From the IMG/VR virus record IMGVR_UViG_3300046659_000007, positions 1 through 45,336 of that record: DNA of 45,336 nucleotides; one strand, written 5' to 3'. Positions 9,604 through 39,381 of the stretch are shown one piece after another. The notes beneath the pieces are model-generated. The model worked only from the letters and a program-made list of their open reading frames with translations. It was not told the origin of the DNA and searched no databases. The position numbers were made by a program, and so were the translations under genes. The first letter of the stretch is position 1, and each line of letters opens with the position of its first letter. The DNA is from a virus.

Positions 9604-9867
9604 TTATGCTAACGCGTCTGGCGACTCGCGCTCTGGCACTGGTCGACCGAGCATTCGGAAGTGTTCGGCGCGCAGCTCATCGATGCGCGCGAGCAGCCTG
9701 TCGGCCTCCTCTCGCGACGCAGACATCATCGCGAGGCGATACTCTACGCTGAGCGGCACATCGCCGAACTTCGCATCAGCGAGGTATGCCTGCGCGAGCC
9801 GCACTGCGTTGTCGAAACTAAACACAAGACTCGCTGCGAGGCGCTCGGCTGGGCTGCGATCGGGCAT
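9604..9867 (-). CDS. Hypothetical protein
   Basis: 87-aa ORF downstream of the methyltransferase gene, co-oriented with it. Confidence 0.45.
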   Translation of the reverse strand: MPDRSPAERLAASLVFSFDNAVRLAQAYLADAKFGDVPLSVEYRLAMMSASREEADRLLARIDELRAEHFRMLGRPVPERESPDALA

Positions 9868-9869
9868 CG

Positions 9870-10541
9870 CTACGCCGCCGCCGACTTGCTCGCGACTCGC
9901 AGCCGCTCGCGCGCGAGCCTGTGTGTCGTCTTGTCCTGCTCGGCGCCGAGCGCGCGCCTGCCCTCGAGCCGAGCTGCGAGCAGCGTTGTGCCTGTGCCTG
10001 CATGCGGATCGATGATGACCTCACCTGGTTCTGAATAGTCGCGCACGAGCGAGCGCATGAGCTCGAGCGGTTTCTGTCCAATGATCGAGGCGCCTCGCAC
10101 GACAGGAGCTGTGTAATGCCCTGGCCTAAAGCGCCGAGGCACAACGATGCGCCTACGTGCAATGGCTATATGCTCGCACTGCGAGCTTGGTCCGTCGCCA
10201 TAGAAGCGCGGCGCCGCTGCCTGCTTGACCCAGATCACAGGCTGAAACACGTACAGATCGCAGCGCTCGAGCGCATCGCGCCAGTAGCCGCACGTGACAT
10301 CGTCGCCGAAGATCACGAACCAGGTGCGCACACGAGGCAGCCAGGCGCGCACGAACGCTCTACAGTAAGCCTCATCGATTATGCCGTAGCTAATGCCTAC
10401 CTGCTGGTTAGGCGCGCTGCCGCTGCGGTATCCAGCTTGCGTGCGCGCGCTGTAAGGAGGGTCTGTCATGAGCGTGTCGCAGTGCACTCGCGCGAGCGCG
10501 TCGCGCCAGTCTCCAAGTCGCAGATCGCATGTGACTGTCAA
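9870..10541 (-). CDS. DNA methyltransferase (N6-adenine or N4-cytosine, beta-class order)
   Basis: Carries the TDPPY catalytic motif near the N-terminus and the DPHAGTGTT AdoMet-binding motif near the C-terminus. Confidence 0.8.
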   Translation of the reverse strand: MTVTCDLRLGDWRDALARVHCDTLMTDPPYSARTQAGYRSGSAPNQQVGISYGIIDEAYCRAFVRAWLPRVRTWFVIFGDDVTCGYWRDALERCDLYVFQPVIWVKQAAAPRFYGDGPSSQCEHIAIARRRIVVPRRFRPGHYTAPVVRGASIIGQKPLELMRSLVRDYSEPGEVIIDPHAGTGTTLLAARLEGRRALGAEQDKTTHRLARERLRVASKSAAA

Positions 10542-12862
10542 GGTTTCACCTCCTCCAATATAGCGATGAGCCGGTCGCGCTGGCTGGTCGTGAGGCCAGG
10601 CACAGCGCCGACGTAGGCGCGAATGAGCGCCGCCTCTGTGCTGATAGTCCGACCCATACCCTTGTATGATTGTGAGGCCGACTCGAAAGCCGCAGCGGCC
10701 TCGGCCTCTGACCAGTCTGTGACCTGGCGCAGTCCGTTGAGCATGCCTGTGATGTAACGATCGTAGGCTCGGCCCTCGAGCACCTCGCCGCCGACAGGCA
10801 GCTGGAGGGCCTTGCTCGAGCCGAGCTCGCCAGCGAGGTCGCGCACGATGCTGCGCGCTGCGGCCTCGGTCGTTGTCTCCTCGATCATCATTCCGATCGA
10901 GCCCTCGGTTGTCGTGTCGAGACTCGTGAGCGTCGGCCCTGCCGCGTGCAGCTCCTCATGTACGTACACACGCAGCGCGATCGCCTGCTTGTATGTGAGC
11001 TGCTCGCCGCGCGCGAGCGCAGCGAGGCTGGCCTGCAGGTCGCTCGCGATGTCTGCACGCAGCTCGAGCGCTCCGTTGCCGTAGAGCGCGCCCTGCGTTC
11101 TGGGATTGCGCAGCACCTGCTTAGCGACCTGAACGTTCTGTGTCGCGCGCGACTGCATCGCCAGGCCTCGGCGAGTGAGCTCAGCCTGCAGCGGCTCGCG
11201 CAGCTTGGTTGCATCTGCCGAGCCTCTGGCAGGCAGCGTGCGCGCGCCTGCATCGAGGTCGGCCAGCAGCTTGCCTCGGCGCCGAGCCTCGGCACTGTGA
11301 GGCTGCAGCGATGGCGGCGGCTGCGGCGGAACTGGCGGCGGCTGCTGCCGAGCTCGAGGCACTGGCGGCTGCGGCGGCAGAGGCGGCGGCAGAGGCGGCG
11401 GCAGAGGCCGACCTGCTGGCGGCGGCGGCGGCGGCGGCGGCCTGCGCCGAGGCGCGCGAGGCGGCGGCGGCGGCGGCTGCTGCGGCCGAGGCCTCGGCGC
11501 TGGCGGCTGCAGCGGCTCATCGCCGAGGCCGAGCTCGGCGAGCACATCATCGAGCACAGGCACAGCCGAGCAGCGGCAGGGATAATAGTGCGTATCGAAA
11601 CCAGGATGCGCGCGCTTGCCAGTCTTAGGGTTTACCACTGGCGGCTGCGACCACTTCTGCACCTTGCCATCGAGGGCCTTGTGCCCTGGTCGCACCTTAT
11701 CGTCGCGCGCTGTGAGCCAGGTGTAAGTCTTGATGCCCAGCGCGAGCTGCCGCTCCATGGTCATCGTGCCATGCAGTTTCGCAACGCTGTCGTTCGCGAG
11801 GATGGTCGCGCGCGCCTCTGACAGGCCAGTCTCATTGAGCGCGCGCGCGAGCGGCTCTGGCCGCCAGCCTTCACGCAGGCCGCGCTCGAGTGTCTTCTTT
11901 GCATCGGCGAGCTGCTTGTCGACCAGGCCAACGATGAGCCGCTGCTGCTGCTCGAGGAACCGCTGCGCGACCTGCGGCATGCCTGTCTCCGGCGAGAACA
12001 CATCGATGCCGAGCACCTCGCCGACGATCTGCTCTGTCTCGTTCTTTGTGTGCTCGGCGACTCGATTGCCTGTCTGCCGAATGAGCGCGCCTACTGGCGC
12101 GCGCGCATCGCGCGCGACCGATGCCCTGGCCTTGGCGAGCAGAGCATCGATGTCATCGTCGCCAGCATCGGCGCGCATCGGCGCCGCCAGCGGCTCGAGC
12201 TCGGCGGCCTCGTGCGCGATGAGCACACCTCTCGCGTGCAGCTTCGGCACGACCTGGTAGAGGATCGTATCCTGCGCGCGCGCCATCGCGCGCTGGCCGT
12301 CTGTGAGCACGACATGCGGCGTGCGCAGAATGAGCAGCGCATCGACTGGCCTATCAGTCGACTGGTCGAGCAGTTTACGTATAGCTCGCACGACCGAGAC
12401 ACCTTCAAAGATGCCGCTCGAGCTGGCCGCCATGCGGCGCGCGAGCTCGGCGCTGGCCTCTGACCAGCCGAGGCCGATGAGATCGTCGCTGTGCACGAGC
12501 GACAGGCCGAGCCTCGAGGCGAGCGCCTTGGCGGCGGTAGTCTTGCCAGCGCGAGGCGCGCCTGCGATCGCGATGCGCGCGATGGCTGGCAGCTTCGCAT
12601 CGTCGGCATCGGCGCGCTGCGCCTGCGCGACCAGCCGCGGCAGCGCAGGCACAACGATGCGCTCGACTGCCTGCTGCGTGCGTTTCACTACGCCGAGCAG
12701 ACCAGTGAGGTAGCCGTTGCGCACAGCCGTCGGAAACTCTGGCGGCCTCGGCCGAGCTCGAGCGGCTCGACCTCGAGGCGGCGCGCTCGTGCGCGCTCGA
12801 GCGCGAGCGGCGCCAGTGAGGTTCGCTGCGAGCGCGCGCTGCGCGATGTTGCGTGTCGCCAC
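10538..12862 (-). CDS. MuF / SPP1 gp7-type minor head protein with an inserted P-loop domain, a polyproline linker and a C-terminal HExxH domain
   Basis: Walker A GAPRAGKT lies at 12539-12562. The MuF-like core is TYTWLTARDDKVRPGHKALDGKV...PCRCS. About 70 residues are Pro-rich (about 11305-11510). VYVHEELHA has HEELH at 10946-10960. The gene follows the portal gene. Confidence 0.75.
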   Translation of the reverse strand: MATRNIAQRALAANLTGAARARARTSAPPRGRAARARPRPPEFPTAVRNGYLTGLLGVVKRTQQAVERIVVPALPRLVAQAQRADADDAKLPAIARIAIAGAPRAGKTTAAKALASRLGLSLVHSDDLIGLGWSEASAELARRMAASSSGIFEGVSVVRAIRKLLDQSTDRPVDALLILRTPHVVLTDGQRAMARAQDTILYQVVPKLHARGVLIAHEAAELEPLAAPMRADAGDDDIDALLAKARASVARDARAPVGALIRQTGNRVAEHTKNETEQIVGEVLGIDVFSPETGMPQVAQRFLEQQQRLIVGLVDKQLADAKKTLERGLREGWRPEPLARALNETGLSEARATILANDSVAKLHGTMTMERQLALGIKTYTWLTARDDKVRPGHKALDGKVQKWSQPPVVNPKTGKRAHPGFDTHYYPCRCSAVPVLDDVLAELGLGDEPLQPPAPRPRPQQPPPPPPRAPRRRPPPPPPPPAGRPLPPPLPPPLPPQPPVPRARQQPPPVPPQPPPSLQPHSAEARRRGKLLADLDAGARTLPARGSADATKLREPLQAELTRRGLAMQSRATQNVQVAKQVLRNPRTQGALYGNGALELRADIASDLQASLAALARGEQLTYKQAIALRVYVHEELHAAGPTLTSLDTTTEGSIGMMIEETTTEAAARSIVRDLAGELGSSKALQLPVGGEVLEGRAYDRYITGMLNGLRQVTDWSEAEAAAAFESASQSYKGMGRTISTEAALIRAYVGAVPGLTTSQRDRLIAILEEVKP

Positions 12863-14619
12863 TACTCAGCGCCCTGCGGCGGCGGCGGCGGCGGCGCAGC
12901 ATGCAGGCTCGGCGGCGCTTGCTTCGGCGTAGGCACGAAGCCTCGACCGACAGTCGAGAGCATCTGGTCGGCCTGCCGCTCATCGACCGAGAACGCGCGC
13001 ATGATGATCGCAACCGCTGTCTCGCGAGGTATCTCGCCAGCAGCGACCGCACGAACGATGTCGAGGAGGCTCGCGACCTGCGCCCCATTAAGCGCGCTGT
13101 CGGCTGCAGCATCGCCGCCGCCAGGCAGGCCAGGCAGAGCGCCATCGCCGCCAGCTGGCAGCAGGTCATCAGGCTGGGGCTCGGCGCGCATGCGCTCGAG
13201 CTCGAGCTTGAGTGCGTGCTCGCGCGACTCGACATCGAGCTCGCCGAACTCGCCGCTGTGCGCGAGCGCGAGCGCGGCCTCCTCTGGCAGGATGATCTGC
13301 GCAGTCGTGAGCGCTACCAGCGCATCAGATGTGGTCTTGAATGCGGTTGCTTTCTCGGCCTTGGTCTCCTGCCAGAGCGGCGGAAACTCGACATGCCATC
13401 CGTCGATGACCTCGCCGTTAGTCGGTCCATCATCGGTCGCCATGATGATGCGAGTGAGCTGCTCGATGGCAGGCACGAGCTCCTCGAGGCGCTCGCTCGC
13501 AACGCGATCATACCAGCCGCGCACATCGCTCTCGCCAGTCGCATTCATGCCCGCTGGCGACCTGCCCCACAGCACCGTCGCAGGCATGCTGGCGGCGGCG
13601 GCGATGCGCATCATGAACCGATCGAGCAGGTCTGGTATGCCGGTGAATGTGGTTGCGACACGCTCGAAACTTTCTTTCTCGGCATCGAGCAGCACCGCTC
13701 GAGCGCTCGAGCGCGCGATATCCATCATCTGCAGGCGCTTGCGCAGCAGTGCCTCGCCATTCGCGGCGAGCATCTGAATGAGGTTGGCAACCTTGAATAC
13801 GCCTTGGCTCGCATCTGTCATCAGATGCGCCGTCGACATCCAAGCAGAGGCGCTCTGCTTGAGCGCCTGATAGGGGCGCTGCAGCACGCTATCATCCCAG
13901 AATGTGCCGCTGAGCACCTGGTAGCGTGCGCTGGTCACACCTCTGAATGTGAGCAGGCGCGACTCGTGAACGATGAGATCTCCGTAGCGACTGCTGCCAG
14001 TGCGCAGCGGCGCGACTGGCTTACCATCGGCGCCAGTGACTGTGCCCTGCTGCATGCGCGTCTGCGGCGGCACGATCACTCGGAACCGCTCGACCTGGCC
14101 GAACTTCGGCGAGCGGATGTCTGTGTAGTAAGACTCTGCGACCAGCTGCGTGCGGCGCAGCACAGTGAGGAACCTGCAGCTCGCGACTCGCTCGAGGTCG
14201 AGCGGCTCGCTCACATCCTGCCCATCATCGGCGCCGACGAATACGCAGCCGTAGCCGTAGAGCCTGCCCCATATCCACGCCTGCCGCAGCGCCTTGCCAG
14301 CGCCGAGCGCCTTGAGCGCATCGTCGATCGAGCGCGAGACAGTCGTTGCATCCTCGATCTCATCGGCGCTGATGTGTATTCGAAAGCCTGCGCGCAGCGC
14401 CTCGCTCGGCAGCGCAGCGACGATCTTGGCTGCGATGTCATCGTCTGTGTAGAGCGACTCGAGCTGCTGGTCTGTGAGCGGCGCAGCGAGGACCTGCTCT
14501 TGCGCAGACAGCTTGTCGCGCACAGTGCCGAGGCCTGTGATCACGTTCTGCCAGGCATCGAGCCGCTGCACTGTGTCTAGGACGCGATTAGCCAGGCTCA
14601 TGCTCGCGCCTATCGGCAT
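12862..14619 (-). CDS. Portal protein
   Basis: 585 aa, immediately downstream of terL. The N-terminus (RLDAWQNVITGLGTVRDK) is typical of DUF1073-type portals. Confidence 0.8.
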   Translation of the reverse strand: MPIGASMSLANRVLDTVQRLDAWQNVITGLGTVRDKLSAQEQVLAAPLTDQQLESLYTDDDIAAKIVAALPSEALRAGFRIHISADEIEDATTVSRSIDDALKALGAGKALRQAWIWGRLYGYGCVFVGADDGQDVSEPLDLERVASCRFLTVLRRTQLVAESYYTDIRSPKFGQVERFRVIVPPQTRMQQGTVTGADGKPVAPLRTGSSRYGDLIVHESRLLTFRGVTSARYQVLSGTFWDDSVLQRPYQALKQSASAWMSTAHLMTDASQGVFKVANLIQMLAANGEALLRKRLQMMDIARSSARAVLLDAEKESFERVATTFTGIPDLLDRFMMRIAAAASMPATVLWGRSPAGMNATGESDVRGWYDRVASERLEELVPAIEQLTRIIMATDDGPTNGEVIDGWHVEFPPLWQETKAEKATAFKTTSDALVALTTAQIILPEEAALALAHSGEFGELDVESREHALKLELERMRAEPQPDDLLPAGGDGALPGLPGGGDAAADSALNGAQVASLLDIVRAVAAGEIPRETAVAIIMRAFSVDERQADQMLSTVGRGFVPTPKQAPPSLHAAPPPPPPQGAE

Positions 14620-14639: not shown

Positions 14640-16109
14640 CTACAGCTCGAGCGACTCGAGCGCCGCCAGATAGTCTGCGGCGCCTCCCTTGAGGTAGTGT
14701 CTAATGGCCTGCGTCTGCGCATCAACGCGATCATTCGCGACACCTCGAGGGAACCGTTTGTGCTCGGTTGCCCAGTCGTGAACCCATGGCGCGAGCGACG
14801 GGTCTGGCAGCCACACGTTGCCAGCGGCGAACACTGGCTGTGTAGCGTAGGCGCGAGCCTCCTTACTGCCGTCTGGCGTGACTGGCAGCACGCCGCTCAC
14901 CTGCTTGCGCAGCATCTCGATCACGGCAGGGCCGTTTGCTTTGTCCTCGACTAGCGTGGTCGTGATCTGCGGCCAGCGCGCGAGCAGCGTGCGCGCCGCA
15001 GCGACAGTGCCGAGAAAGTCGAGGTGCTCGCGTATCTCATCGAGCAGCCAGAAGTGCGGCGGCCTGTAAGCCCACACCTGCGCGGCGACATAGCTCGAGG
15101 TGTCATGCGCCTTGAATGCGCAGTCGAGCGACAGGCACACGAGCTTTCCCTCGAGCGGCGGTCGCACGAGGTAATACTGCTGCAGCCATTCCTGCCGATA
15201 GATGGCGCCGCCCTGCGGCACTGGGTCCTGCTGGTCTTGGGCTGCCCAGCCATCAGGGCCGAACTCCTGCTTACGCCGATCGACCTCGGCGTCTGGCCAG
15301 CGCGCCTCGCAGAGCAGCTCGCCATCGGCCTGCCGAGGATCCTGCCAGCCGATAGGCGTAGGCGCTCGGCGCGCTGCGCTGATGTAACGCATCGGCATCG
15401 CGAGCACTGCATACCCTTGCTCGGCGGCGAGGCCTGCGAGGTCGCGATCGTGCAGGCGTTGCATGATGATGGTGCGTGTGTTGTTGCCAGGCAGCACACG
15501 CGACGCCATCGTTTCAAACCACCACAGCCGAGTGTGCTCGAGCATCGTCGCGCTGTGCGCATCGGTCGGCTTCATCGGATCATCAACGACCTGCCTGTGT
15601 GCGTGAAAGCCAGTCGGCGAGCCGCCGACGCTGATGGCCTGGCGGATGCCGCCTCGATCATTCTCGAGCCAGTCGGCGAGCCAGCGGCCTCGCTTCGGCT
15701 TCCACACCTCGCGATATAGGTCGCGATACCATTCGCTCTCGAATAGCGTGCGGCACTTGAGCGAGTCGCGCACAGCGAGCGCATCGGCATAGGCCCCGTA
15801 TTGCCACTGACAGCCAGGGTTTATCGACCATTCCCACGCTGGCCACATGACGCAGACAGTCGTGCTCTTGCTCGAGCCTGGCGGAACGTTGATGACCAGC
15901 CGCGGCAGCTCGCCTCGGCTCTGGGCCTCGAGGTGCTCGGCGACTGCGCCTATGTGCCAGTTGTCGACATAGGGCGCATTCGGCACGACGATCGGCCATG
16001 CGCTCTTGATGAACTCGTAGAGGTTGCGAGGCGTGCGAGCTCGCCGCTCGACACGCTTGCCTCGCTCTGCGATGAGGGCAGCGAGGCTCGGCTTACGCTG
16101 CACCGCCAC
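14640..16109 (-). CDS. terL: Terminase large subunit
   Basis: 489 aa. Walker-A-like region PPGSSKST, a C-terminal nuclease-like region, and position upstream of the portal. Confidence 0.8.
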   Translation of the reverse strand: MAVQRKPSLAALIAERGKRVERRARTPRNLYEFIKSAWPIVVPNAPYVDNWHIGAVAEHLEAQSRGELPRLVINVPPGSSKSTTVCVMWPAWEWSINPGCQWQYGAYADALAVRDSLKCRTLFESEWYRDLYREVWKPKRGRWLADWLENDRGGIRQAISVGGSPTGFHAHRQVVDDPMKPTDAHSATMLEHTRLWWFETMASRVLPGNNTRTIIMQRLHDRDLAGLAAEQGYAVLAMPMRYISAARRAPTPIGWQDPRQADGELLCEARWPDAEVDRRKQEFGPDGWAAQDQQDPVPQGGAIYRQEWLQQYYLVRPPLEGKLVCLSLDCAFKAHDTSSYVAAQVWAYRPPHFWLLDEIREHLDFLGTVAAARTLLARWPQITTTLVEDKANGPAVIEMLRKQVSGVLPVTPDGSKEARAYATQPVFAAGNVWLPDPSLAPWVHDWATEHKRFPRGVANDRVDAQTQAIRHYLKGGAADYLAALESLEL

Positions 16110-17337
16110 TGCGGCGCTGCGCGCTCTGGCCTGTCAGTGCCTGCCAGCGTTCGATGATCACATCGCAGTAGGCAGGCGCGAGCTCGACTGCAGTGCACAC
16201 TCGGCCGAGCTGCTCGGCGGCGATTAGCGTTGTGCCGCTGCCAGCGTACGGATCGAATACCTCGCCGCTCGTGAACTTGAGGCAGAAGCCGAGCAGCTTG
16301 ACTGGCTTCTGCGTCGGATGCTTGCGCTTCTCGTGCTCGCCAGCGCGGATCATTCCGTTCCACAGCTGGCGATGCACGCGCGCAGGGCCTGTCTGGTTCG
16401 ACCAGGCGAGCTCGCAGTCGGCGAAGCTATTCTCGATGCCGCTATCATCGCGCTTGTCCCACACGAGCCAGCCGCCCTGCGCTGGTAACTGGTCGGCGAA
16501 GTAGTTACCGCCCCACATGATCACGACCTCGCCGCGCTCGAGCAGCCAGCGCACATCCGGCGTGCTGTCATCGCCAGCAATCGGCGCGTACTTGCCTGCT
16601 TTGGCGACGGTGCCGAACTTAGCCGATTGCGCGCCTGCAGCGCCGACACGGCCCTGCTTGGTCACAACCGAGATACCGTAGGGCGGATCGGTAATCACTG
16701 CGCCGAAGCTGCGCACAGGTGTCTGCCTTCCATCGCCGCAGATCAGCGTGTGAGCGCCGAGCTGCCAGACATCGCCGAGCCTGCTCACTGGGTCGACAGG
16801 CACTGGCGGCGCCTCATCCTCCTCGAGCTCGGCCTCTGGCTTATCGCTGCCGCTGAGCTCATCTGCGAGCGCCTCTATATCCTCGCTCGACCAGCCTGCG
16901 AGCTCGGCCTCGGCCAGGTCAAACTTAGACAGCACGCTCGCGAGCGAGTCGCTCCATGTCGCGAGCTCGCCTAGTCGGTTGTCGGCGAGCGCGAGCAGGT
17001 GTGCCTCGCGCTCGCTGATGTCGAGCAGCCGCACTGGCACCTGCGGCAGCTCGAGCGCGAGCGCTGCTTTCCATCTTGTGTGCCCTGCGATGATCTCTCG
17101 GTTGGCTGCGCGCGCAACGATGACAGAGCCGAAGCCGAACCGCTTGATGCTCTCGATCACAGCCTCGACAGGCTCGCCATCGTTGAGCCGAGGGTTATCG
17201 CGCCAAGGCTTGAGCTCCTTCGGCGACAGCCAGACGGCAGGCGATGCAGCCGCCAGCGGCGAGGCCTTGGCGGCGGCGGCCTTGCGCGCTGCTGGCTTAG
17301 TTGCTGCTGCTTGGTTCTGTTTTGCTTTTGGTTTCAT
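16093..17337 (-). CDS. ParB-like nuclease domain / DNA methyltransferase fusion
   Basis: ParB N-terminal-like region (GEPVEAVIESIKRFGFGSVIVARAANREIIAGHTRWKAA). Methyltransferase motifs TDPPYG and DPYAGSGTT. Start chosen at MKPKAK (ATG 17337); the track ORF extends to 17514. Confidence 0.75.
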   Translation of the reverse strand: MKPKAKQNQAAATKPAARKAAAAKASPLAAASPAVWLSPKELKPWRDNPRLNDGEPVEAVIESIKRFGFGSVIVARAANREIIAGHTRWKAALALELPQVPVRLLDISEREAHLLALADNRLGELATWSDSLASVLSKFDLAEAELAGWSSEDIEALADELSGSDKPEAELEEDEAPPVPVDPVSRLGDVWQLGAHTLICGDGRQTPVRSFGAVITDPPYGISVVTKQGRVGAAGAQSAKFGTVAKAGKYAPIAGDDSTPDVRWLLERGEVVIMWGGNYFADQLPAQGGWLVWDKRDDSGIENSFADCELAWSNQTGPARVHRQLWNGMIRAGEHEKRKHPTQKPVKLLGFCLKFTSGEVFDPYAGSGTTLIAAEQLGRVCTAVELAPAYCDVIIERWQALTGQSAQRRSGGAA

Positions 17338-17635
17338 CTGGACTCTGCGCATCTGGCGCGCGCAGCAGGCGCTCGGCTGCGTATCGCTCGGCGACGCCAG
17401 CGACCTCTGACACGAGCTCGGCGAACTGCGCCTGTGTAACTGACAGTCCTTGCGACGCATGCTCGATGATGCGCTCGACAATGAGCCTCGAGGCAGCGTC
17501 GGCTGCCTCCGCATTCTTATCCATGATCGCTAGCGCATAGGCGCGACCAGTGAACACTAGGTGCATTGCGATGCTCAGCGCTGCGGCGACTAGCAGCTCA
17601 TCGCGACGATCGGCCTTGCCTGTCGGTTCGCTCAT
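17297..17635 (-). CDS. Hypothetical protein
   Basis: 112-aa ORF with gene-like composition. Its 3' end overlaps the next gene by about 40 nt. Confidence 0.45.
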   Translation of the reverse strand: MSEPTGKADRRDELLVAAALSIAMHLVFTGRAYALAIMDKNAEAADAASRLIVERIIEHASQGLSVTQAQFAELVSEVAGVAERYAAERLLRAPDAQSPDETKSKTEPSSSN

Positions 17636-29215: not shown

Positions 29216-29378
29216 AACTGCCCCGTTGCTAAAACCTCAATGATTCCGCTAATGTGCCTTAGTGGAAAAACGGCGCCCCTTCCCTCATCGCAACTCACGT
29301 AAGCGCACGATCGGCCTGAAACACAGGGCGCCGCCGATCGGCCGAGGATCGGCGCTCGCGCGCCTACCCTCACAGCCG

Positions 29379-30368
29379 ATGGTAGACCAGTCGACCAGTC
29401 GACCAGCCGACCAGCGGCCTGCTGCGCTCGACATCGGCCAGGATCTCGAGCGCCTCATACGTAACTATGCGGCATTCGCGAAGCGCGCCAAGGCCGATCG
29501 TACAGTCACAGAGTATGCAGCGCAGTGGCGCAGGTTCGACGCATGGTGCGCAGTGCGCGGCCTGAACTCGCTGCCCTGCCAGCCGCAGACGCTCGCGCTC
29601 TACCTCGCCTCACTGGCCGAGCGCCTCAAGGTCGCATCGATCGCGATGGCCCTCGCTGCCGTCTGCGCCAAGCATCGAACCGCAGGCCATTCCGATCCGC
29701 AGGCAAGCCCGATCATCGGCGAGCTCTGGGCAGGCATCCGCCGCTCGCTCGGCAGCGAGCAGCGCCGAGTCGCGCCGCTGCTCACAGAGGACCTGCATAC
29801 GATCGCGCGCGCGATGCCGCACACGCTGGCAGGCAAGCGCGACAGGGCGCTGCTCGCGCTCGGCCTCGGCGGCGCGATGCGTCGATCCGAGCTGTGCGCG
29901 CTCACTGTCGAGGATGTGAAGTTCCAAGCGAGCGGCGGCCTCGTGCTGCGCATACGCCGCAGCAAAACAGACCAGGAAGGTAAGGCGGCGCGCATCGGCA
30001 TCGCTCGAGGCGGCTCGCGCATGACCTGCCCAGAGCGCAACCTGCGCGCCTGGCTCGAGGCCTCGCGCATCAAGAGCGGACCTCTATTCCGCTCCGTCAA
30101 TGGCGAGCGCATCGGTCGCAGCGCGCTGTCTGGCCGCACCATCGCCAACATCATCAAGCGCGCAGTCGAGGCAGCAGGCCTCGACCCAGAGCTGTATTCT
30201 GGGCACAGCCTGCGCGCAGGCCTCGCGACCAGCGCCGCTCGAGCTGGCAAGGCCGACCGAGCGATCATGCAGCAGGGCCGATGGTCTAACCGAGCGACGG
30301 TGGATCGCTACGTGCGCGACGCCAGACTGCTCGACCGAGACAACGCGAGCGCAGACATCGGCCTATGA
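29379..30368 (+). CDS. Tyrosine recombinase (Cre/Xer-like integrase or resolvase)
   Basis: RDRALLALGLGGAMRRSEL, GHSLRAG and GRWSNRATVDRY supply the R...HxxR...Y catalytic pattern. Start chosen at ATG 29379. Confidence 0.8.
   Translation: MVDQSTSRPADQRPAALDIGQDLERLIRNYAAFAKRAKADRTVTEYAAQWRRFDAWCAVRGLNSLPCQPQTLALYLASLAERLKVASIAMALAAVCAKHRTAGHSDPQASPIIGELWAGIRRSLGSEQRRVAPLLTEDLHTIARAMPHTLAGKRDRALLALGLGGAMRRSELCALTVEDVKFQASGGLVLRIRRSKTDQEGKAARIGIARGGSRMTCPERNLRAWLEASRIKSGPLFRSVNGERIGRSALSGRTIANIIKRAVEAAGLDPELYSGHSLRAGLATSAARAGKADRAIMQQGRWSNRATVDRYVRDARLLDRDNASADIGL
29385..29416. repeat. 8-bp-periodic array, four direct units
   Basis: GACCAGTC GACCAGTC GACCAGCC GACCAGCG, beginning 6 nt after the recombinase ATG. 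Confidence 0.75.
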
Positions 30369-31672: not shown

Positions 31673-31721
31673 CAGGGCGCTGGTATAGCCAGCGCCAGCC
31701 GTGCTACCATTTCGTATCGCG

Positions 31722-31730
31722 CGCTATATT
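31722..31730 (+). promoter_or_regulatory. CGCTATATT box upstream of the 31756-parA operon
   Basis: Its extended context (tcgcgcgctatattgg) resembles that at 30888-30903. Confidence 0.4.
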
Positions 31731-31755
31731 GGCACGCTGAAACGGCAGGCAGGCT

Positions 31756-31947
31756 ATGGCACGCAATCGAACCTGGATAGTTATGTGCATCCCAGCGAGG
31801 CGCGACGATGGCGCCTCGAGCTACTTTGCTTACAACACATACACGCAGCGCTCGCGCGCTGCGGCCTCTGCCGCCGATGCGCGAGGCATGTGTCGCGACC
31901 TCAACGCTGGCATCGATCCGAGCGATGTCGCGAGCGTCGTGAGATGA
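31756..31947 (+). CDS. Hypothetical small protein, translationally coupled to the ParA-like gene
   Basis: 63 aa, with an ATGA overlap with the ParA start. Confidence 0.4.
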   Translation: MARNRTWIVMCIPARRDDGASSYFAYNTYTQRSRAAASAADARGMCRDLNAGIDPSDVASVVR

Positions 31948-32633
31948 CCACTATATTCGCCCTAGGCAACCAGAAAGGCGGCGTAGGGCGCTCAACGCTC
32001 GCAGTCTCGCTCGCCGCATACTGGCTCGAGCGAGGCCGCAAGGTCCTGCTGGTCGATGCCGATGAGCAGGCGACTGCGCGCACGTGGGTTGAGGTCGCGC
32101 TCGAGCACGAGCGGCCAGCGCCGACTGTGATCGCAATGGGCGTGTCGATGCATCGGCGCGACCAGCTGCCGCGGCTGGCGCCTGCATACGACATCGTGAT
32201 CATCGATACGCCTGCGAGGCTCGGCGAGGTACAGGGCGCAGCGATGCTGTGCGCAGACGTCGTGATCGTGCCCTGCGGACCAAGCGCGCACGAGTGCTGG
32301 GCAATGGCCGAGAGCGTGCAGCTGGTCGACAAGGCGAGGTCACTGCGGCCAGAGCTCGAGGCCTGCATCGTGATCACGCGCAGGATCGCACGCACGACGC
32401 TGGGTCACGAGGCGCGCGAGGTGCTCGAAAAAACAGGGCTCCCTGTGCTCGATGCCGAGCTCGGCCATCGGGTCGACTACCAGGAGGCTAGCGCCGCAGG
32501 CCGAGGCGTGACCAGCTATGCACCGCAGGGTGAGGCAGCGAGCGAGGTGCGCTCGCTGGCAGCCGAGCTCGAGCTGTTCGCTCGAGGCCGCAAAATCAGA
32601 GCGAGCAAGCGCGCAGCCAAGGAGGCACGATGA
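31944..32633 (+). CDS. parA: Small ParA-type (type Ib-like) partition ATPase with an atypical Walker A (KGGVGRST)
   Basis: FALGNQKGGVGRSTLAVSLA, VLLVDADEQ and DIVIIDTPA. It is 229 aa with no N-terminal HTH. Confidence 0.75.
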   Translation: MTTIFALGNQKGGVGRSTLAVSLAAYWLERGRKVLLVDADEQATARTWVEVALEHERPAPTVIAMGVSMHRRDQLPRLAPAYDIVIIDTPARLGEVQGAAMLCADVVIVPCGPSAHECWAMAESVQLVDKARSLRPELEACIVITRRIARTTLGHEAREVLEKTGLPVLDAELGHRVDYQEASAAGRGVTSYAPQGEAASEVRSLAAELELFARGRKIRASKRAAKEAR

Positions 32634-37794: not shown

Positions 37795-39381
37795 TCAAGG
37801 TGACATCAGCCATTTGCTGTTGCTCTGCACCCGCAGAAAATCAAAAGCGAACAGGGCGGACGTCCCTGCTACGTCGTTGCGGCAGTAGAACCCGACCCAA
37901 GCTAGAGGTGTTACGAACGTGCGCGGAGTTGGCCACTCGTAAGAGTCGCCTGTTTGGCTGTTGTAGAGCCAGCTCCGGCGGGCCGTACCTTCGAATCGGT
38001 CGGCGTACGAGTCCCAAAAGCCAGAATATGGGATGCCTTCCTCGACGTTGCTTGTGTTGTCTATCCGATTGAATCGCGAGTACACACCAAGGCCGTTGGT
38101 GTTGGTTTGACATCCAACGCGAGCCAGCTTCAGCACGTCTGGAATGCCGGCTGCGTCAGCAGCGGCAAATATTGTGCACAGCGGCGTGTAGAACGTGTTG
38201 GTGGGTCGGACTTGCGTTCGAAAGCGACCAGTCACCAGACAGTCGGTTGGGTTGACGTTGCGCGCGATGAATATGTCTGTTGCAAGCGGCAGCTCGAACC
38301 ACAGCCAACTGCCCATGAGAGTCGATCTGTATTGCGTAGGGCCTAAGACACTCCGGCCGTATGGGTCGATATCACCGACGCGTGTAAACTCAGCGCCGCC
38401 ATATATGTTGATGATTTTGTAGAGTGCGCTCGTGTCTGAGGTGAACTCATCGGCGAAGATTGCGCCAGCGGGACTCCGCAGCCACGGGTTACCAGGGTCG
38501 CCAGCTGGGCCGGTCGCACCAGTTGACCCTTGCACACCAGGCACACCCTGCGGCCCTTGGGCACCTGGTGCGCCAGCTGGGCCGGTCGCACCTGGTGCGC
38601 CAGCTGGGCCGGTCGCACCTGGTGCGCCAGCTGGGCCGGTCGCACCGGTCGCGCCAGCTGGGCCGGTCGCACCGGTCGCGCCAGCTGGGCCGGTCGCACC
38701 GGCCGCACCGGTCGCGCCAGTGGGGCCAGGATCGCCTTGTGGACCGGCCGGCCCTTGTGGGCCTGTGCGGCCGCTGACAAGGCCCCAAATCGAGGCGCCG
38801 TCCTCATGATAAAATACCCACTCCGAATAGGTGCCAGCGGGCAATGCAGCGCTCGAGCCGCGCAATCCGTCGAGACCTTGGATCTCCGATGTTCCTAACA
38901 CCTGCACTCTGACTGGCACCGTCACATCGCGGCCGACATACAGGGCAAAATGCGAATCAACCGGTGGTGCATCGATCGATGAGATGATGAACACAACAGC
39001 TTCAGTCGTGCCGACTGGCGGCTGCTGGATAAAGCCCCATGTGCCTGGCGCGATCGTGGCTGTGCCAGCGCTACCAGTCCAAAACTTGATCGATGGATCG
39101 TACCGCAGGCCAGGCACTCGCCAGATCGCATGCTTTCCATCGATCCCAGTCAGCACCTGCCCTTCGACCGGTGGTGCTGCGCTCGCCACATCGACAGGAT
39201 CACCCGTCGTTTGCAGCGCACTGGCGCTGCTGGCATCCGAGCCAGGCGGTCCCTGCGGTCCCTGCGGTCCCTCGGGACCCTCGGGGCCTGCAGGCCCCTG
39301 CGGTCCTGCAGGCCCTCGCGCACCCGATATCGTGACTGGTATCGATGGCGTGTCCGAACCGACGATGACCTTGACAGACAT
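37795..39381 (-). CDS. Collagen-like tail fibre with two G-X-Y tracts and a lower-GC C-terminal domain
   Basis: [28 protein letters not shown] near the N-terminus, then a roughly 95-residue G-X-Y tract mid-protein. It follows the baseplate genes. Confidence 0.75.
38562..38696. repeat. Five tandem 27-bp repeats (3 identical plus 2 identical variants) inside the collagen-like tract
   Basis: cacctggtgcgccagctgggccggtcg at 38562, 38589 and 38616. caccggtcgcgccagctgggccggtcg at 38643 and 38670. Each unit encodes 9 aa of G-X-Y. Confidence 0.9.

What the first reader, a model, noticed from the sequence alone, without database searches (positions are those of the whole stretch)
10538..12862. MuF-type head protein with an embedded P-loop domain, a ~70-residue polyproline linker and a C-terminal HExxH domain
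Three unusual additions surround the MuF/gp7 core (KVRPGHKALDG...PCRCS):
- A Walker A motif (GAPRAGKT, 12539-12562) with a kinase-like context, LVHSDDLIGLGW.
- A tract that is mostly proline (about 11305-11510).
- A ~250-aa C-terminal domain containing VYVHEELHA (HEELH at 10946-10960), the minimal zinc-metallopeptidase motif.

MuF proteins of temperate phages are known carriers of variable C-terminal toxin or effector domains. A protein packaged in the head and ejected with the DNA, and carrying a putative metalloprotease plus an NTPase, would be an attractive injected effector.
Basis: partly seen in the sequence, partly recalled or inferred. Interest (0 to 1): 0.7.

Follow-up and report, generated by a model that had tools for sequence, protein, structure and literature searches.

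The report
Phage head protein carrying protease and kinase
A temperate phage's MuF head protein has a small ATP-binding kinase-like domain inserted in it and ends in a zinc-protease-like domain from a widespread but uncatalogued family that nearly always comes with a tiny acidic partner gene, so it looks like a capsid-delivered effector with its own antidote.

Summary
ORF 10538-12862 (-) encodes 774 aa just after the portal gene.

- **Layout:** MuF N-terminal hairpin, P-loop domain (Walker A GAPRAGKT), MuF core, a 76-aa linker that is 54% proline, then a 246-aa HExxH domain.
- **C-terminal domain:** It models with high confidence (pLDDT 93.6) as a zincin-type fold. It belongs to a family of at least 464 representative proteins. 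H635, E636, H639, E662, E666 and R670 are 97-100% conserved across the family and all are present here. Neither Pfam nor PHROGs matches the domain, and NCBIfam does not match the family.
- **Carriers:** The family is mostly fused to MuF, sometimes to portal proteins.
- **Partner gene:** A small acidic ORF follows the domain in 50 of 58 loci and in 0 of 9 loci without it. Here it is the 87-aa ORF at 9604-9867.
- **Polymorphism:** Sister phages keep the N-terminal part (71% identity) and swap the C-terminus, which is the hallmark of polymorphic toxins.
- **P-loop domain:** It has an NMP-kinase fold. Elsewhere it is a stand-alone ~125-aa gene lying after the portal gene (directly before MuF where MuF is recognisable). 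Here it is inserted into MuF.

The best reading is a head-packaged, MuF-anchored effector with a cognate inhibitor. Packaging, ejection, proteolysis and the substrate are untested. It is a new variant of a known kind.

The parts
10538..12862 (-). Whole gene: 774-aa MuF fusion protein. The GTG start overlaps the portal stop codon.
   Evidence: ORF list and translation. 31 relatives of 425-909 aa, most of them 700-900 aa with the same layout.
12590..12862 (-). aa 1-91: basic N-terminus plus the MuF N-terminal helical hairpin (aa ~43-90).
   Evidence: AF2 model shows helices at aa 45-69 and 71-90. aa 43-79 match aa 30-70 of unfused MuF proteins L063 and L066.
12188..12589 (-). aa 92-225: inserted mini P-loop NMP-kinase-like domain.
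   Evidence: Weak Pfam AAA_18 and AAA_33 matches. Foldseek matches shikimate kinase, adenylate kinase and Fap7 with E ~1e-4 and probability 1.0. At least 584 clusters, the listed ones mostly stand-alone proteins of ~125-140 aa. Insertion shown.
12539..12562 (-). Walker A motif GAPRAGKT (aa 101-108).
   Evidence: G101, P103, G106, K107 and T109 are at least 90% conserved.
11531..12187 (-). aa 226-444: MuF (SPP1 gp7-like) head-morphogenesis core, including KVRPGHKALDG...PCRCS.
   Evidence: Pfam PF04233 at aa 322-433. PHROG 324 at aa 222-439. TIGR01641.
11303..11530 (-). aa 445-520: proline-rich linker (54% Pro), encoded by a (GGC)n-like low-complexity tract.
   Evidence: Relatives carry Pro-rich linkers of 22-192 aa.
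10541..11278 (-). aa 529-774: C-terminal zincin-like (gluzincin-type) metallopeptidase domain from an uncatalogued family.
   Evidence: AF2 pLDDT 93.6, pTM 0.92. Best Foldseek hits are zincins but weak. 464 representative proteins in the family. No Pfam, PHROG or NCBIfam match.
10946..10960 (-). HEELH (aa 635-639): two candidate zinc ligands and the catalytic glutamate.
   Evidence: Family-wide conservation: H 99%, E 100%, H 99%.
10853..10882 (-). EETTTEAAAR (aa 661-670): helix carrying the candidate third zinc ligand (E662 or E666) and R670.
   Evidence: E662 98%, E666 99%, R670 97% conserved. The segment lies in model helix 128-153.
9604..9867 (-). 87-aa acidic ORF: candidate cognate partner (immunity protein or inhibitor) of the zincin domain.
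   Evidence: Conserved at 34-51% identity in all six zincin-type sister loci first compared, and by HMM in 8 loci in all (adding L025 and L063). Absent from 4 non-zincin sister loci. pI 5.1 and no transmembrane segment.
9870..10541 (-). 223-aa N6/N4 DNA methyltransferase inserted between the MuF gene and the partner ORF (context).
   Evidence: Pfam PF01555, E 1.4e-19. The same insertion occurs in L001 but not in L006-L009.
12862..14619 (-). Portal protein immediately upstream (context: the docking partner of MuF).
   Evidence: Pfam Phage_portal_3, E 4e-79.

Best explanation
**Proposed function.** The gene encodes a multi-domain internal head protein of a temperate myovirus-like phage.

- The MuF part (N-terminal hairpin plus core) is the anchor that brings the protein into the procapsid through the portal. 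This is inferred from what is known of SPP1 gp7 and Mu F.
- A long flexible proline-rich linker tethers a catalytically intact zincin-type metallopeptidase domain.
- That domain is a swappable cargo. It would be carried in the capsid and released into the next host with the DNA, where it would cleave a host protein, most plausibly a defence or housekeeping factor.
- In the producing cell, a small acidic cytoplasmic protein encoded just downstream would keep the protease in check. Here that is the 87-aa ORF at 9604-9867. Elsewhere it is a ~60-aa protein whose start overlaps the stop codon.
- The second enzymatic module is a ~130-aa P-loop NMP-kinase-like domain. It is normally a separate gene lying after the portal gene. 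In this clade it has been inserted between the MuF hairpin and the core, so it is physically tied to the packaged protein. It is expected to bind and hydrolyse, or transfer phosphate from, ATP. Its substrate is unknown.

**Shown here:** the architecture, the folds, the conservation of catalytic residues, the polymorphism of the C-terminus, and the linkage to the partner gene.

**Inferred only:** packaging, ejection, proteolysis, inhibition by the partner, and the target.
For: **Architecture and context**
- Domain layout.
- Head-module context (TerL, portal, MuF, Pa193_gp24-like protein, major capsid protein, sheath).
- The phage is temperate, with an integrase and a ParA-like protein.

**Zincin domain**
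- The AF2 model has pLDDT 93.6. Strands are followed by a helix, then the HExxH helix, then a glutamate-bearing helix. This matches the zincin core described in PMC5512222.
- The top solved-structure matches are zinc peptidases: DPP III (probability 0.90), vibriolysin, ProA, IRAP/ERAP1, Pz peptidase and PprI.
- H635, E636, H639, E662, E666, R670 and Y700 are 91-100% conserved across about 165 family domains, and all are present in the window copy.

**Carrier logic**
- At least 101 of 161 family proteins carry a MuF core, and others are fused to portal domains.
- The motif scan found 46 viral contigs but only 7 contigs in 185,579 species genomes.

**Polymorphism**
- P0004 (zincin type) and P0014 (PI3K-like type) are 71% identical over aa 1-527 and unrelated after that.
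- Other sister proteins end in a HEWGH-type domain, in other unassigned domains, or in nothing.

**Partner gene**
- 50 of 58 zincin loci have a small acidic ORF directly downstream, and 0 of 9 non-zincin loci have one.

**Kinase**
- Fold.
- At least 584 clusters, mostly stand-alone ~125-140 aa proteins.
- The gene lies after the portal gene, and directly before MuF where MuF is recognisable.
- Insertion into MuF.
- The same domain is fused to another head protein, the Pa193_gp24/DUF2213 family, in P0031.
Against: - No experiment and no virion proteome are available.
- Structural similarity to solved zincins is weak: best E 0.019, TM 0.33-0.41, and no hit at E <= 1e-3.
- The model's coordinates could not be inspected, so the ligand geometry is unverified.
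- The window copy has Lys where its close subfamily has a nearly invariant His (H.LALP).
- Two relatives have degenerate motifs: HEEMK and REHAF.
- The 87-aa partner is not demonstrably homologous to the ~60-aa partner of the wider family: hhalign P 0.008, probability 5%.
- A methyltransferase gene separates the protease gene from its partner in this window.
- The kinase's LID arginine is not conserved, and its Pfam scores fall below the family cutoffs. It may be an NTPase working in assembly rather than an effector.
Confidence: 0.55

Rival explanations
1. The zincin domain is a self-processing protease. It cuts its own polypeptide, for example in or near the proline-rich linker, before packaging, inside the head or after ejection. 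This would release the cargo or trim MuF. It would not attack host proteins.
For: PMC5512222 argues that zincin peptidase domains in phage polyvalent proteins often process the polypeptide that carries them, citing P1 DdrB. The long exposed linker is an obvious cleavage target. Some family members carry 2-5 tandem zincin copies.
Against: A purely cis-acting protease would not obviously need a dedicated co-varying partner gene. Sister phages with non-protease C-termini or none at all (P0003; the L066 MuF of 333 aa) do without it.
Confidence: 0.2
2. The protein is a classical MuF polymorphic toxin used for competition between bacteria. It would be released when lysogens lyse and would act on neighbouring cells. 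The small ORF would be the immunity protein protecting lysogens.
For: Jamet et al. 2017 (PMC5576092) propose this for MuF toxins of temperate phages and report that most are followed by a small ORF. This phage is temperate. C-terminal swapping is present.
Against: No secretion or entry domain is evident. The partner has no signal peptide or transmembrane segment. MuF and portal fusions point to delivery through the capsid.
Confidence: 0.1
3. The added domains serve virion assembly. The P-loop module would be an assembly or packaging NTPase acting with portal and MuF. The zincin would process head proteins during maturation.
For: The kinase gene is conserved after the portal gene, sometimes directly before MuF, in several unrelated head modules. 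It is fused to another head-assembly protein in P0031.
Against: The phage already has a Pa193_gp24-type protein (PHROG 530, named head maturation protease). Closely related heads assemble with different C-termini or none, so the zincin cannot be essential for assembly. For the kinase, this rival is not excluded.
Confidence: 0.1
4. The HExxH domain is catalytically dead or purely structural in this phage, acting for example as a DNA-binding or portal-plugging domain.
For: The window copy has Lys at a His that is nearly invariant in its subfamily. Two relatives have lost the motif. No strong match to a solved peptidase was found.
Against: All residues conserved across the wider family at 88-100% (H635, E636, H639, E661, E662, E666, R670, Y700) are intact here. 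The subfamily His is not among the positions that reach 75% conservation family-wide.
Confidence: 0.05

Closest known systems
MuF polymorphic toxins of temperate phages (Jamet et al. 2017, PMC5576092)
   Same: N-terminal MuF domain encoded after the portal gene. Variable C-terminal domain swapped among close relatives. A small ORF downstream. A temperate phage. About 20% of the described MuF toxins carry a metallopeptidase domain.
   Different: The C-terminal domain matches no catalogued toxin or peptidase family. It does not resemble the paper's Ct_MAD profile in the 64 of 251 positions read. It also carries an inserted P-loop kinase-like domain. Described MuF toxins are mostly from Firmicutes, whereas this one comes from a 64% G+C phage lineage known only from metagenomes.
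Polyvalent proteins of phages and conjugative elements, with zincin-like MPTase domains (Iyer et al. 2017, PMC5512222), including the ArdC C-terminal peptidase and the phage N4 vRNAP MPTase
   Same: Several unrelated enzymatic domains in one polypeptide, anchored by MuF or portal and predicted to be packaged and injected. The zincin core has a beta-sheet, an HExxH helix and a Glu helix. That paper also notes kinases (zeta-toxin-like) fused to MuF.
   Different: No Pfam peptidase model, MPTase-PolyVal included, matches ten diverse family members even at E <= 10. The motif here is HExxH-(~17 aa)-EExxTExxAR. The domain is accompanied by a dedicated small partner gene. The kinase has an NMP-kinase fold, not the zeta-toxin or protein-kinase type.
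Gluzincin metallopeptidases (thermolysin M4, DPP III M49, M1 aminopeptidases, anthrax lethal factor)
   Same: HExxH on one helix and a glutamate ligand on the following helix. A conserved Tyr or Arg is available to stabilise the transition state. These families are the best Foldseek matches.
   Different: Matches are weak (E >= 0.019, TM <= 0.41) and there is no sequence-level relationship. The domain is only ~246 aa and has its own C-terminal helical region.
Small P-loop NMP-kinase-fold enzymes: shikimate kinase, adenylate kinase, AK6/Fap7/hCINAP (Pfam AAA_18)
   Same: Walker A motif, an Asp pair after strand 2 (HSDD, compare DxD in shikimate kinase), an acidic residue ending strand 3, and the overall fold.
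   Different: Only ~130 aa with a short LID that lacks a conserved arginine. It has its own LGWSEAS and FEGVxVxRAxRK motifs. Pfam scores are below the cutoffs. The gene is tied to the phage head module.
Capsid-delivered phage effectors with known function (T4 Alt, P1 Dar proteins, N4 vRNAP), recalled from the literature cited in PMC5512222
   Same: The principle of enzymes packaged in the head and injected with the DNA to act before phage genes are expressed.
   Different: No homology. Delivery here is inferred only from the MuF and portal fusions.

Membership tests
MuF / SPP1 gp7 head-morphogenesis family (PF04233, TIGR01641) | Profile match above the curated cutoff | tested here: met
   PF04233 scores 48.5 bits against 29.6. 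TIGR01641 scores 47.7 against 39.65. PHROG 324 gives E 1.2e-35.
MuF / SPP1 gp7 head-morphogenesis family (PF04233, TIGR01641) | Gene located directly after the portal gene in a terminase-portal head module | tested here: met
   TerL 14640-16109, portal 12862-14619, MuF 10538-12862. The same order is seen in 9 related loci.
MuF / SPP1 gp7 head-morphogenesis family (PF04233, TIGR01641) | Presence in the virion, bound to the portal | not testable with these tools
   Needs virion proteomics or cryo-EM.
MuF polymorphic toxin (Jamet 2017) | Conserved N-terminal MuF part with unrelated C-terminal domains among close homologues | tested here: met
   P0004 and P0014 are 71% identical over aa 1-527 and share nothing after that. 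Alignment A1 shows at least 5 C-terminal types.
MuF polymorphic toxin (Jamet 2017) | Small downstream ORF that co-varies with the C-terminal domain (candidate immunity protein) | tested here: met
   50 of 58 zincin loci have a small acidic ORF downstream and 0 of 9 non-zincin loci do. The protective function itself is not tested.
MuF polymorphic toxin (Jamet 2017) | Encoded by a temperate phage or prophage | tested here: met
   Integrase at 29262-30368 and a ParA-like protein at 31701-32633.
MuF polymorphic toxin (Jamet 2017) | Toxicity of the C-terminal domain, neutralised by the immunity protein | not testable with these tools
   Needs expression assays.
Zincin / gluzincin metallopeptidase superfamily | HExxH motif on an alpha-helix | tested here: met
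   HEELH at aa 635-639 lies at the end of, and just past, model helix 96-110 in domain numbering. It is 99-100% conserved.
Zincin / gluzincin metallopeptidase superfamily | Third ligand (Glu) on the following helix | tested here: met
   E662 (98%) and E666 (99%) lie in model helix 128-153. Their geometry relative to the two His residues could not be measured.
Zincin / gluzincin metallopeptidase superfamily | Beta-sheet and backing helix N-terminal to the active-site helix | tested here: met
   Strands 19-22, 48-52, 63-65 and 71-74, and helix 75-89, precede helix 96-110.
Zincin / gluzincin metallopeptidase superfamily | Significant structural match to solved zincins | tested here: inconclusive
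   The best hits are zincins but weak: DPP III at E 0.019, probability 0.90, TM 0.33. No hit reaches E <= 1e-3.
Zincin / gluzincin metallopeptidase superfamily | Zinc binding and peptide-bond hydrolysis | not testable with these tools
   Needs biochemistry.
Catalogued phage or toxin metallopeptidase families (Pfam MPTase-PolyVal, Tox-MPTase and others) | Profile match to a Pfam, PHROG or NCBIfam model | tested here: not met
   No relevant match for ten diverse family domains: Pfam at E <= 10, PHROGs at E <= 0.01. NCBIfam gave nothing for the window protein's C-terminus, the family consensus or two members.
Ct_MAD (C-terminal MuF-associated domain, Jamet 2017) | Agreement with the published Ct_MAD HMM | tested here: inconclusive
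   Only nodes 1-19 and 63-105 of 251 were read. They show no HExxH and no strongly conserved His or Glu where this family would have them. The full HMM was not run.
P-loop NMP-kinase-like fold (AAA_18 / AK6-Fap7, shikimate kinase, adenylate kinase) | Walker A GxxxxGK[ST], conserved | tested here: met
   GAPRAGKT. G101, G106, K107 and T109 are at least 90% conserved.
P-loop NMP-kinase-like fold (AAA_18 / AK6-Fap7, shikimate kinase, adenylate kinase) | Fold similarity to solved kinases | tested here: met
   36 PDB hits at E <= 1e-3, all probability 1.0, target-normalised TM 0.39-0.49. The model has pLDDT 85, and 92-96 across most of the domain.
P-loop NMP-kinase-like fold (AAA_18 / AK6-Fap7, shikimate kinase, adenylate kinase) | Pfam family score above the gathering cutoff | tested here: not met
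   AAA_18 scores 22.7 against 29.4 and AAA_33 scores 19.7 against 27. Only the Walker A region aligns.
P-loop NMP-kinase-like fold (AAA_18 / AK6-Fap7, shikimate kinase, adenylate kinase) | LID arginine and a defined phosphate-acceptor site | tested here: inconclusive
   The Arg after Q190 varies (GQRAM, GQAAM, GQLRM). R159, R162 and K163 are invariant or nearly so, but their role is unknown.

The most novel reading that the evidence does not exclude
The zincin domain and its tiny acidic partner form a previously undescribed and widespread protease-inhibitor (effector-immunity) module. Tailed phages load it into their capsids by fusing the protease to MuF or portal. It is injected with the DNA to cleave a host defence or host control protein before any phage gene is expressed. 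In parallel, the mini P-loop kinase encoded after the portal gene would be a second capsid-targeted enzyme, a new class of ejected phage kinase or NTPase. In this clade it has been hard-wired into MuF.
Probability: 0.3. Interest if true: 0.75.

Novelty: new variant of a known kind. Interest (0 to 1): 0.6.

Why it matters
Proteins that travel in the capsid act before any phage gene is expressed, so they are prime candidates for counter-defence. Few have a known function.

This locus offers three testable things:
- a zincin family of at least 464 representative clusters that no domain library holds, with a clear catalytic signature;
- a matched small partner, which gives a ready-made toxin-antidote assay and a handle for finding the target;
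- a conserved mini-kinase in the head module, whose insertion into MuF argues that it works with, or travels with, MuF.

If the module is confirmed, these domains could be annotated in many metagenomic phages, and a protease would be added to the known repertoire of injected effectors.

Tried and rejected
1. **C-terminal domain alone, word-indexed search.** It found nothing. The exhaustive profile search was needed.
2. **Library scans for the zincin domain and both partner families.** Pfam, PHROG and NCBIfam scans were all negative.
3. **tblastn of the family consensus against 50,697 GenBank phages.** No match. The full protein matches known phages only in the MuF core.
4. **PDB profile search with the C-terminal alignment.** The only hit was a short resemblance of the tail motif VPxLDxxQRAAL..L.DP to the staphylococcal protein A B-domain. 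Each repeat scored E 1-4 on its own, so this was treated as a chance or helix-turn similarity.
5. **The search for related loci with alignments A2 and A5.** A degenerate DNA motif scan replaced them.
6. **Is the domain Jamet's Ct_MAD?** The first 19 HMM nodes look vaguely similar (L..rrGlt). Nodes 63-105 show no HExxH, so the idea was rejected provisionally. The stored copy of the paper's spreadsheet is cut short and held no mention of Ct_MAD, so no Ct_MAD-bearing phages could be looked up.
7. **Homology between the 87-aa partner and the ~60-aa partner family.** Iterated HMM search found nothing and hhalign gave P 0.008. This is left open.
8. **Kinase as a simple head-to-tail fusion with the upstream gene.** Rejected. 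The MuF N-terminal hairpin precedes the kinase, so this is an insertion.
9. **Metzincin reading of HExxHxxG.** Rejected. There is no conserved His or Asp at position +6.

Full report
**1. The observation**

The window holds an ORF at 10538-12862 on the minus strand that encodes 774 aa. Its GTG start overlaps the stop codon of the upstream portal gene by one base. The upstream gene, 12862-14619, matches Phage_portal_3 with E 4e-79.

- GAPRAGKT at aa 101-108 (nt 12539-12562), followed by LVHSDDLIGLGW.
- HEELH at aa 635-639 (nt 10946-10960).
- A proline tract, best delimited as aa 445-520 (nt 11303-11530), with 41 prolines in 76 residues. The rest of the protein is 5% proline. The DNA under it is a (GGC)n-like low-complexity array.

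In 20,000 shuffles of the protein, HExxH arises in 0.9%, a Walker A motif in 1.3% and both in 0.005%.

The MuF core is genuine:
- PF04233 scores 48.5 bits against a cutoff of 29.6, at aa 322-433.
- TIGR01641 scores 47.7 against 39.65.
- PHROG 324 matches at aa 222-439 with E 1.2e-35.

**2. Genomic setting**

The gene lies in a head module ordered as follows:
- ParB-methyltransferase
- large terminase
- portal
- this gene
- an N6/N4 DNA methyltransferase
- small ORFs
- a protein matching PHROG 530, whose counterpart in the related loci is Pa193_gp24-type
- an unassigned 165-aa ORF, which sits where the related loci carry a cement protein
- major capsid protein
- neck protein
- tail sheath

The window also encodes an integrase, a ParA-like protein, a baseplate wedge protein and a collagen-like tail fibre. 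It is therefore a temperate, contractile-tailed phage.

Its closest cultured relative by large terminase is only 40% identical (Aeromonas phage 56). Against 50,697 GenBank phage records, only the MuF core of this protein finds matches.

**3. Relatives and polymorphism**

A full-length search found 31 relatives of 425-909 aa, most of them 700-900 aa and several on ~46-kb contigs. The alignment shows four things:
- The N-terminus, the P-loop domain (GxPRxGKT, HxDDLIxLGWSEAS, IFEGVAVVRALRKLL) and the MuF core are conserved in all full-length relatives aligned.
- A Pro-rich linker is always present but ranges from 22 to 192 aa.
- The C-terminus falls into unrelated types. These are the window's HExxH type, a second HEWGH type, a weak PI3/PI4-kinase-like type, other unassigned types, and no domain at all in P0003 (425 aa).
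- The swap can be sharp. P0004 (HExxH type) and P0014 (PI3K-like type) are 71% identical over aa 1-527 and share nothing after that.

The window protein and P0001 are 64% identical in the N-terminal 460 residues but only 34% in the C-terminal domain. This is the modular pattern described for MuF polymorphic toxins (PMC5576092) and for MuF- or portal-anchored effectors (PMC5512222).

**4. The C-terminal domain**

*Fold.* Searched alone with the word-indexed tool, the domain found nothing. A 13-sequence alignment from the relatives (A2) gave an AlphaFold model with pLDDT 93.6 and pTM 0.92. In domain numbering (add 528 for protein numbering), the model has:
- strands 19-22, 48-52, 63-65 and 71-74;
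- helix 75-89;
- helix 96-110, which ends in HEELH;
- helix 128-153, which carries EETTTEAAAR.

This is the zincin core described in PMC5512222: a sheet, the HExxH helix, then a helix carrying a glutamate.

*Structural matches.* Foldseek against the PDB gave no hit at E <= 1e-3. The best matches were nonetheless zinc peptidases: DPP III (E 0.019, probability 0.90), vibriolysin, ProA, IRAP/ERAP1, Pz peptidase and PprI. Against predicted viral structures, the weak hits included a lethal-factor fragment and IrrE-like and SprT-like proteins.

*Family size and conservation.* An exhaustive profile search of 1.84 billion representative proteins found 464 proteins at E <= 1e-3 and 134 at E <= 1e-10. 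Across about 165 aligned domains, the conservation is as follows:

| Residue | Conservation |
|---|---|
| H635 | 99% |
| E636 | 100% |
| H639 | 99% |
| E661 | 88% |
| E662 | 98% |
| E666 | 99% |
| R670 | 97% |
| R555 | 98% |
| Y700 | 91% |

The window copy has all of these. The dominant spacing is HExxH, then 17 residues, then EExxTExxAR.

*Caveats on activity.* Two relatives have degenerate motifs (HEEMK and REHAF). The window has Lys at a His that is nearly invariant in its own subfamily. That position does not reach 75% conservation family-wide.

*Not in any library.* Ten diverse domains gave no relevant match in Pfam even at E <= 10 and none in PHROGs. NCBIfam gave nothing for the window protein's C-terminus, the family consensus or two members. 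The family consensus finds nothing in GenBank phages.

[quoted passage not shown] I read 64 of the 251 nodes of its HMM. They show no HExxH and no strongly conserved His or Glu. It is probably a different domain, but the full HMM was not run.

**5. Who carries the domain**

- Of ten representatives scanned, six were MuF fusions, two were portal fusions (Portal_Mu and Phage_portal_3) and two had no recognised domain.
- An iterated MuF profile finds a MuF core in at least 101 of 161 family proteins.
- 116 of 218 domain hits end within 40 residues of the C-terminus, and some proteins carry 2-5 copies.
- A degenerate DNA scan for the motif found 46 IMG/VR viral contigs, all confirmed by HMM. It found only 7 contigs in one genome for each of 185,579 species, of which 4 were clear members, 1 weak and 2 false. 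All the confirmed ones are metagenome-assembled genomes.

The domain is therefore a phage head-protein cargo that is essentially unknown from cultured phages.

**6. A partner gene**

In the six HExxH-type sister loci first compared (window, L001, L006-L009), an ORF of 87-91 aa lies downstream and is 34-51% identical across them. An HMM built from these also finds it in L025 and L063. The small ORFs downstream of four non-HExxH sister genes are unrelated. In the window, this ORF is 9604-9867 (-). A methyltransferase gene (9870-10541) has been inserted between it and the MuF gene, as also in L001.

In the wider family, the first downstream ORF usually starts at or overlaps the stop codon, and 38 of these ORFs form one BLAST cluster of ~55-75 aa proteins. 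Their consensus is ..PRNDVEAAL..Y.....G.LT.D.AEMLLMLQDDPxEL.

By HMM, the counts are:
- 42 zincin loci have this small protein.
- 8 have the 87-aa type.
- 8 have neither. Three of these end at the contig edge, one is a weak hit, and four have divergent small ORFs.
- None of 9 loci without the zincin has either type.

Both partner types are acidic (median pI 4.8), lack hydrophobic segments and match no library family. Homology between the two types is unproven: hhalign gives P 0.008 and probability 5%.

A small cytoplasmic protein that is tightly linked to an enzymatic cargo domain and co-varies with it is the signature of an immunity protein or inhibitor. This is an inference, not a demonstration.

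**7. The P-loop domain**

*Fold and residues.* Residues 40-262 model with pLDDT 85, and 92-96 across most of the P-loop domain. Foldseek places it firmly among NMP-kinase-fold enzymes, including shikimate kinase, adenylate kinase and Fap7/hCINAP. It returned 36 PDB hits at E <= 1e-3, all with probability 1.0.

Sequence profiles align only the Walker A region. Conserved features are:
- the Walker A Lys and Thr;
- the Asp pair after strand 2 (HSDD);
- E153 at the end of strand 3;
- R159, R162 and K163.

The usual LID arginine is not conserved, so activity as a kinase rather than an NTPase is open.

*Where else it occurs.* A profile search found at least 584 clusters. The best-scoring 120 are mostly stand-alone proteins of ~125-140 aa. 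Their genes sit as follows:
- directly between portal and MuF, overlapping the MuF start, in L063;
- directly before MuF, one small ORF after portal, in L066;
- a few genes after portal in L064 and L065, directly before a 328-aa protein with only a weak MuF-like match;
- overlapping the portal stop in GenBank MW202476, the only GenBank phage record that has it.

*Insertion into MuF.* The unfused MuF proteins of L063 and L066 align with window aa 43-79 through their own aa 30-70. They align with window aa 267-446 through their aa 118-295. In the window's clade, the kinase has therefore been inserted between the MuF N-terminal hairpin and the core.

In P0031, the same domain is fused instead to a Pa193_gp24/DUF2213 head protein. 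Repeated attachment to internal head proteins suggests the module works with them or travels with them.

**8. Interpretation**

The best-supported reading is a MuF-anchored internal head protein carrying two enzymatic modules. One is a swappable zincin protease cargo on a flexible proline-rich tether, held in check in the producer cell by a small acidic partner. The other is a head-module mini-kinase.

That MuF proteins are packaged through the portal and leave with the DNA is established knowledge for SPP1 gp7 and Mu F, as cited in PMC5512222. It is not shown for this protein.

The rivals are:
- self-processing by the protease (PMC5512222);
- an extracellular competition toxin (PMC5576092);
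- an assembly role;
- a dead or purely structural domain.

The assembly role is unlikely for the zincin. Close relatives build the same head with other C-termini or none. It is not excluded for the kinase.

**9. Comparison and novelty**

By architecture, polymorphism, temperate lifestyle and a co-varying small downstream ORF, this protein is a member of the MuF polymorphic-toxin or polyvalent-protein kind.

Three things are new:
- the zincin family itself, which is large, sharply defined and absent from Pfam, PHROGs and NCBIfam;
- its near-obligate small partner;
- the conserved kinase gene of the head module and its insertion into MuF.

I rate it a new variant of a known kind with interest 0.6. 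It is not categorically new, because metallopeptidase cargo on MuF and kinase fusions to MuF are anticipated in the literature. It is nonetheless a well-defined, widespread and directly testable module.

Noticed in passing
window 9870-10541 (-); L001 10550-11227: An N6/N4 DNA methyltransferase gene is inserted between the MuF-zincin gene and its 87-aa partner in the window and in L001. It is absent from L006-L009, where the partner follows directly. The window also has a second methyltransferase, a ParB fusion, at 16093-17514.
   Followed up: partly
window aa 742-770 of the ORF (nt ~10553-10639); alignment A2 columns ~225-257: The C-terminal tail motif (V/L)PxL(D/T)xxQRxAL...L.DP resembles the helix-turn of the staphylococcal protein A B-domain (LPNLNEEQRNAFIQSLKDD). 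Each repeat scored only E 1-4 on its own, so this is probably chance or convergent.
   Followed up: partly
P0031 (554 aa, metagenomic): The same mini P-loop kinase domain is fused to the N-terminus of a Pa193_gp24/DUF2213 (PF09979) head protein instead of MuF. This is a second, independent attachment to an internal head protein.
   Followed up: partly
P0006, P0007, P0008, P0011, P0012 (sister MuF proteins); L002: A different C-terminal domain with its own HExxH motif (LHEWGHSLE / LHEMAHAIE) replaces the window-type domain. It is not detected by the window-type HMM and has a different downstream small ORF, on the opposite strand in L002.
   Followed up: no
P0005, P0014, P0023; L005: Sister MuF proteins end in a domain with weak PI3/PI4-kinase-like similarity (best E 1.6e-5, below the Pfam cutoff). 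In L005 it is followed by an unrelated 83-aa ORF.
   Followed up: no
P0043, P0046, P0058, P0142, P0159 and the giant proteins P0070 (2450 aa) and P0141 (1558 aa): Some family members carry 2-5 tandem copies of the zincin domain, or place it inside very large proteins. P0141 and P0042 are portal fusions. These resemble polyvalent proteins.
   Followed up: partly
window 37795-39381 (-): A 528-aa tail-fibre protein with collagen-like repeat matches (many PHROG tail-fibre families).
   Followed up: no
window 29262-30368 (+) and 31701-32633 (+): An integrase and a ParA-like partition protein occur in the same phage. Whether the prophage integrates or is kept as a plasmid was not examined.
   Followed up: no
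window 11301-11516: The proline linker is encoded by a (GGC)n-like array with nested 9-45 bp periods. This kind of sequence is prone to slippage and may explain why linker length ranges from 22 to 192 aa among relatives.
   Followed up: partly
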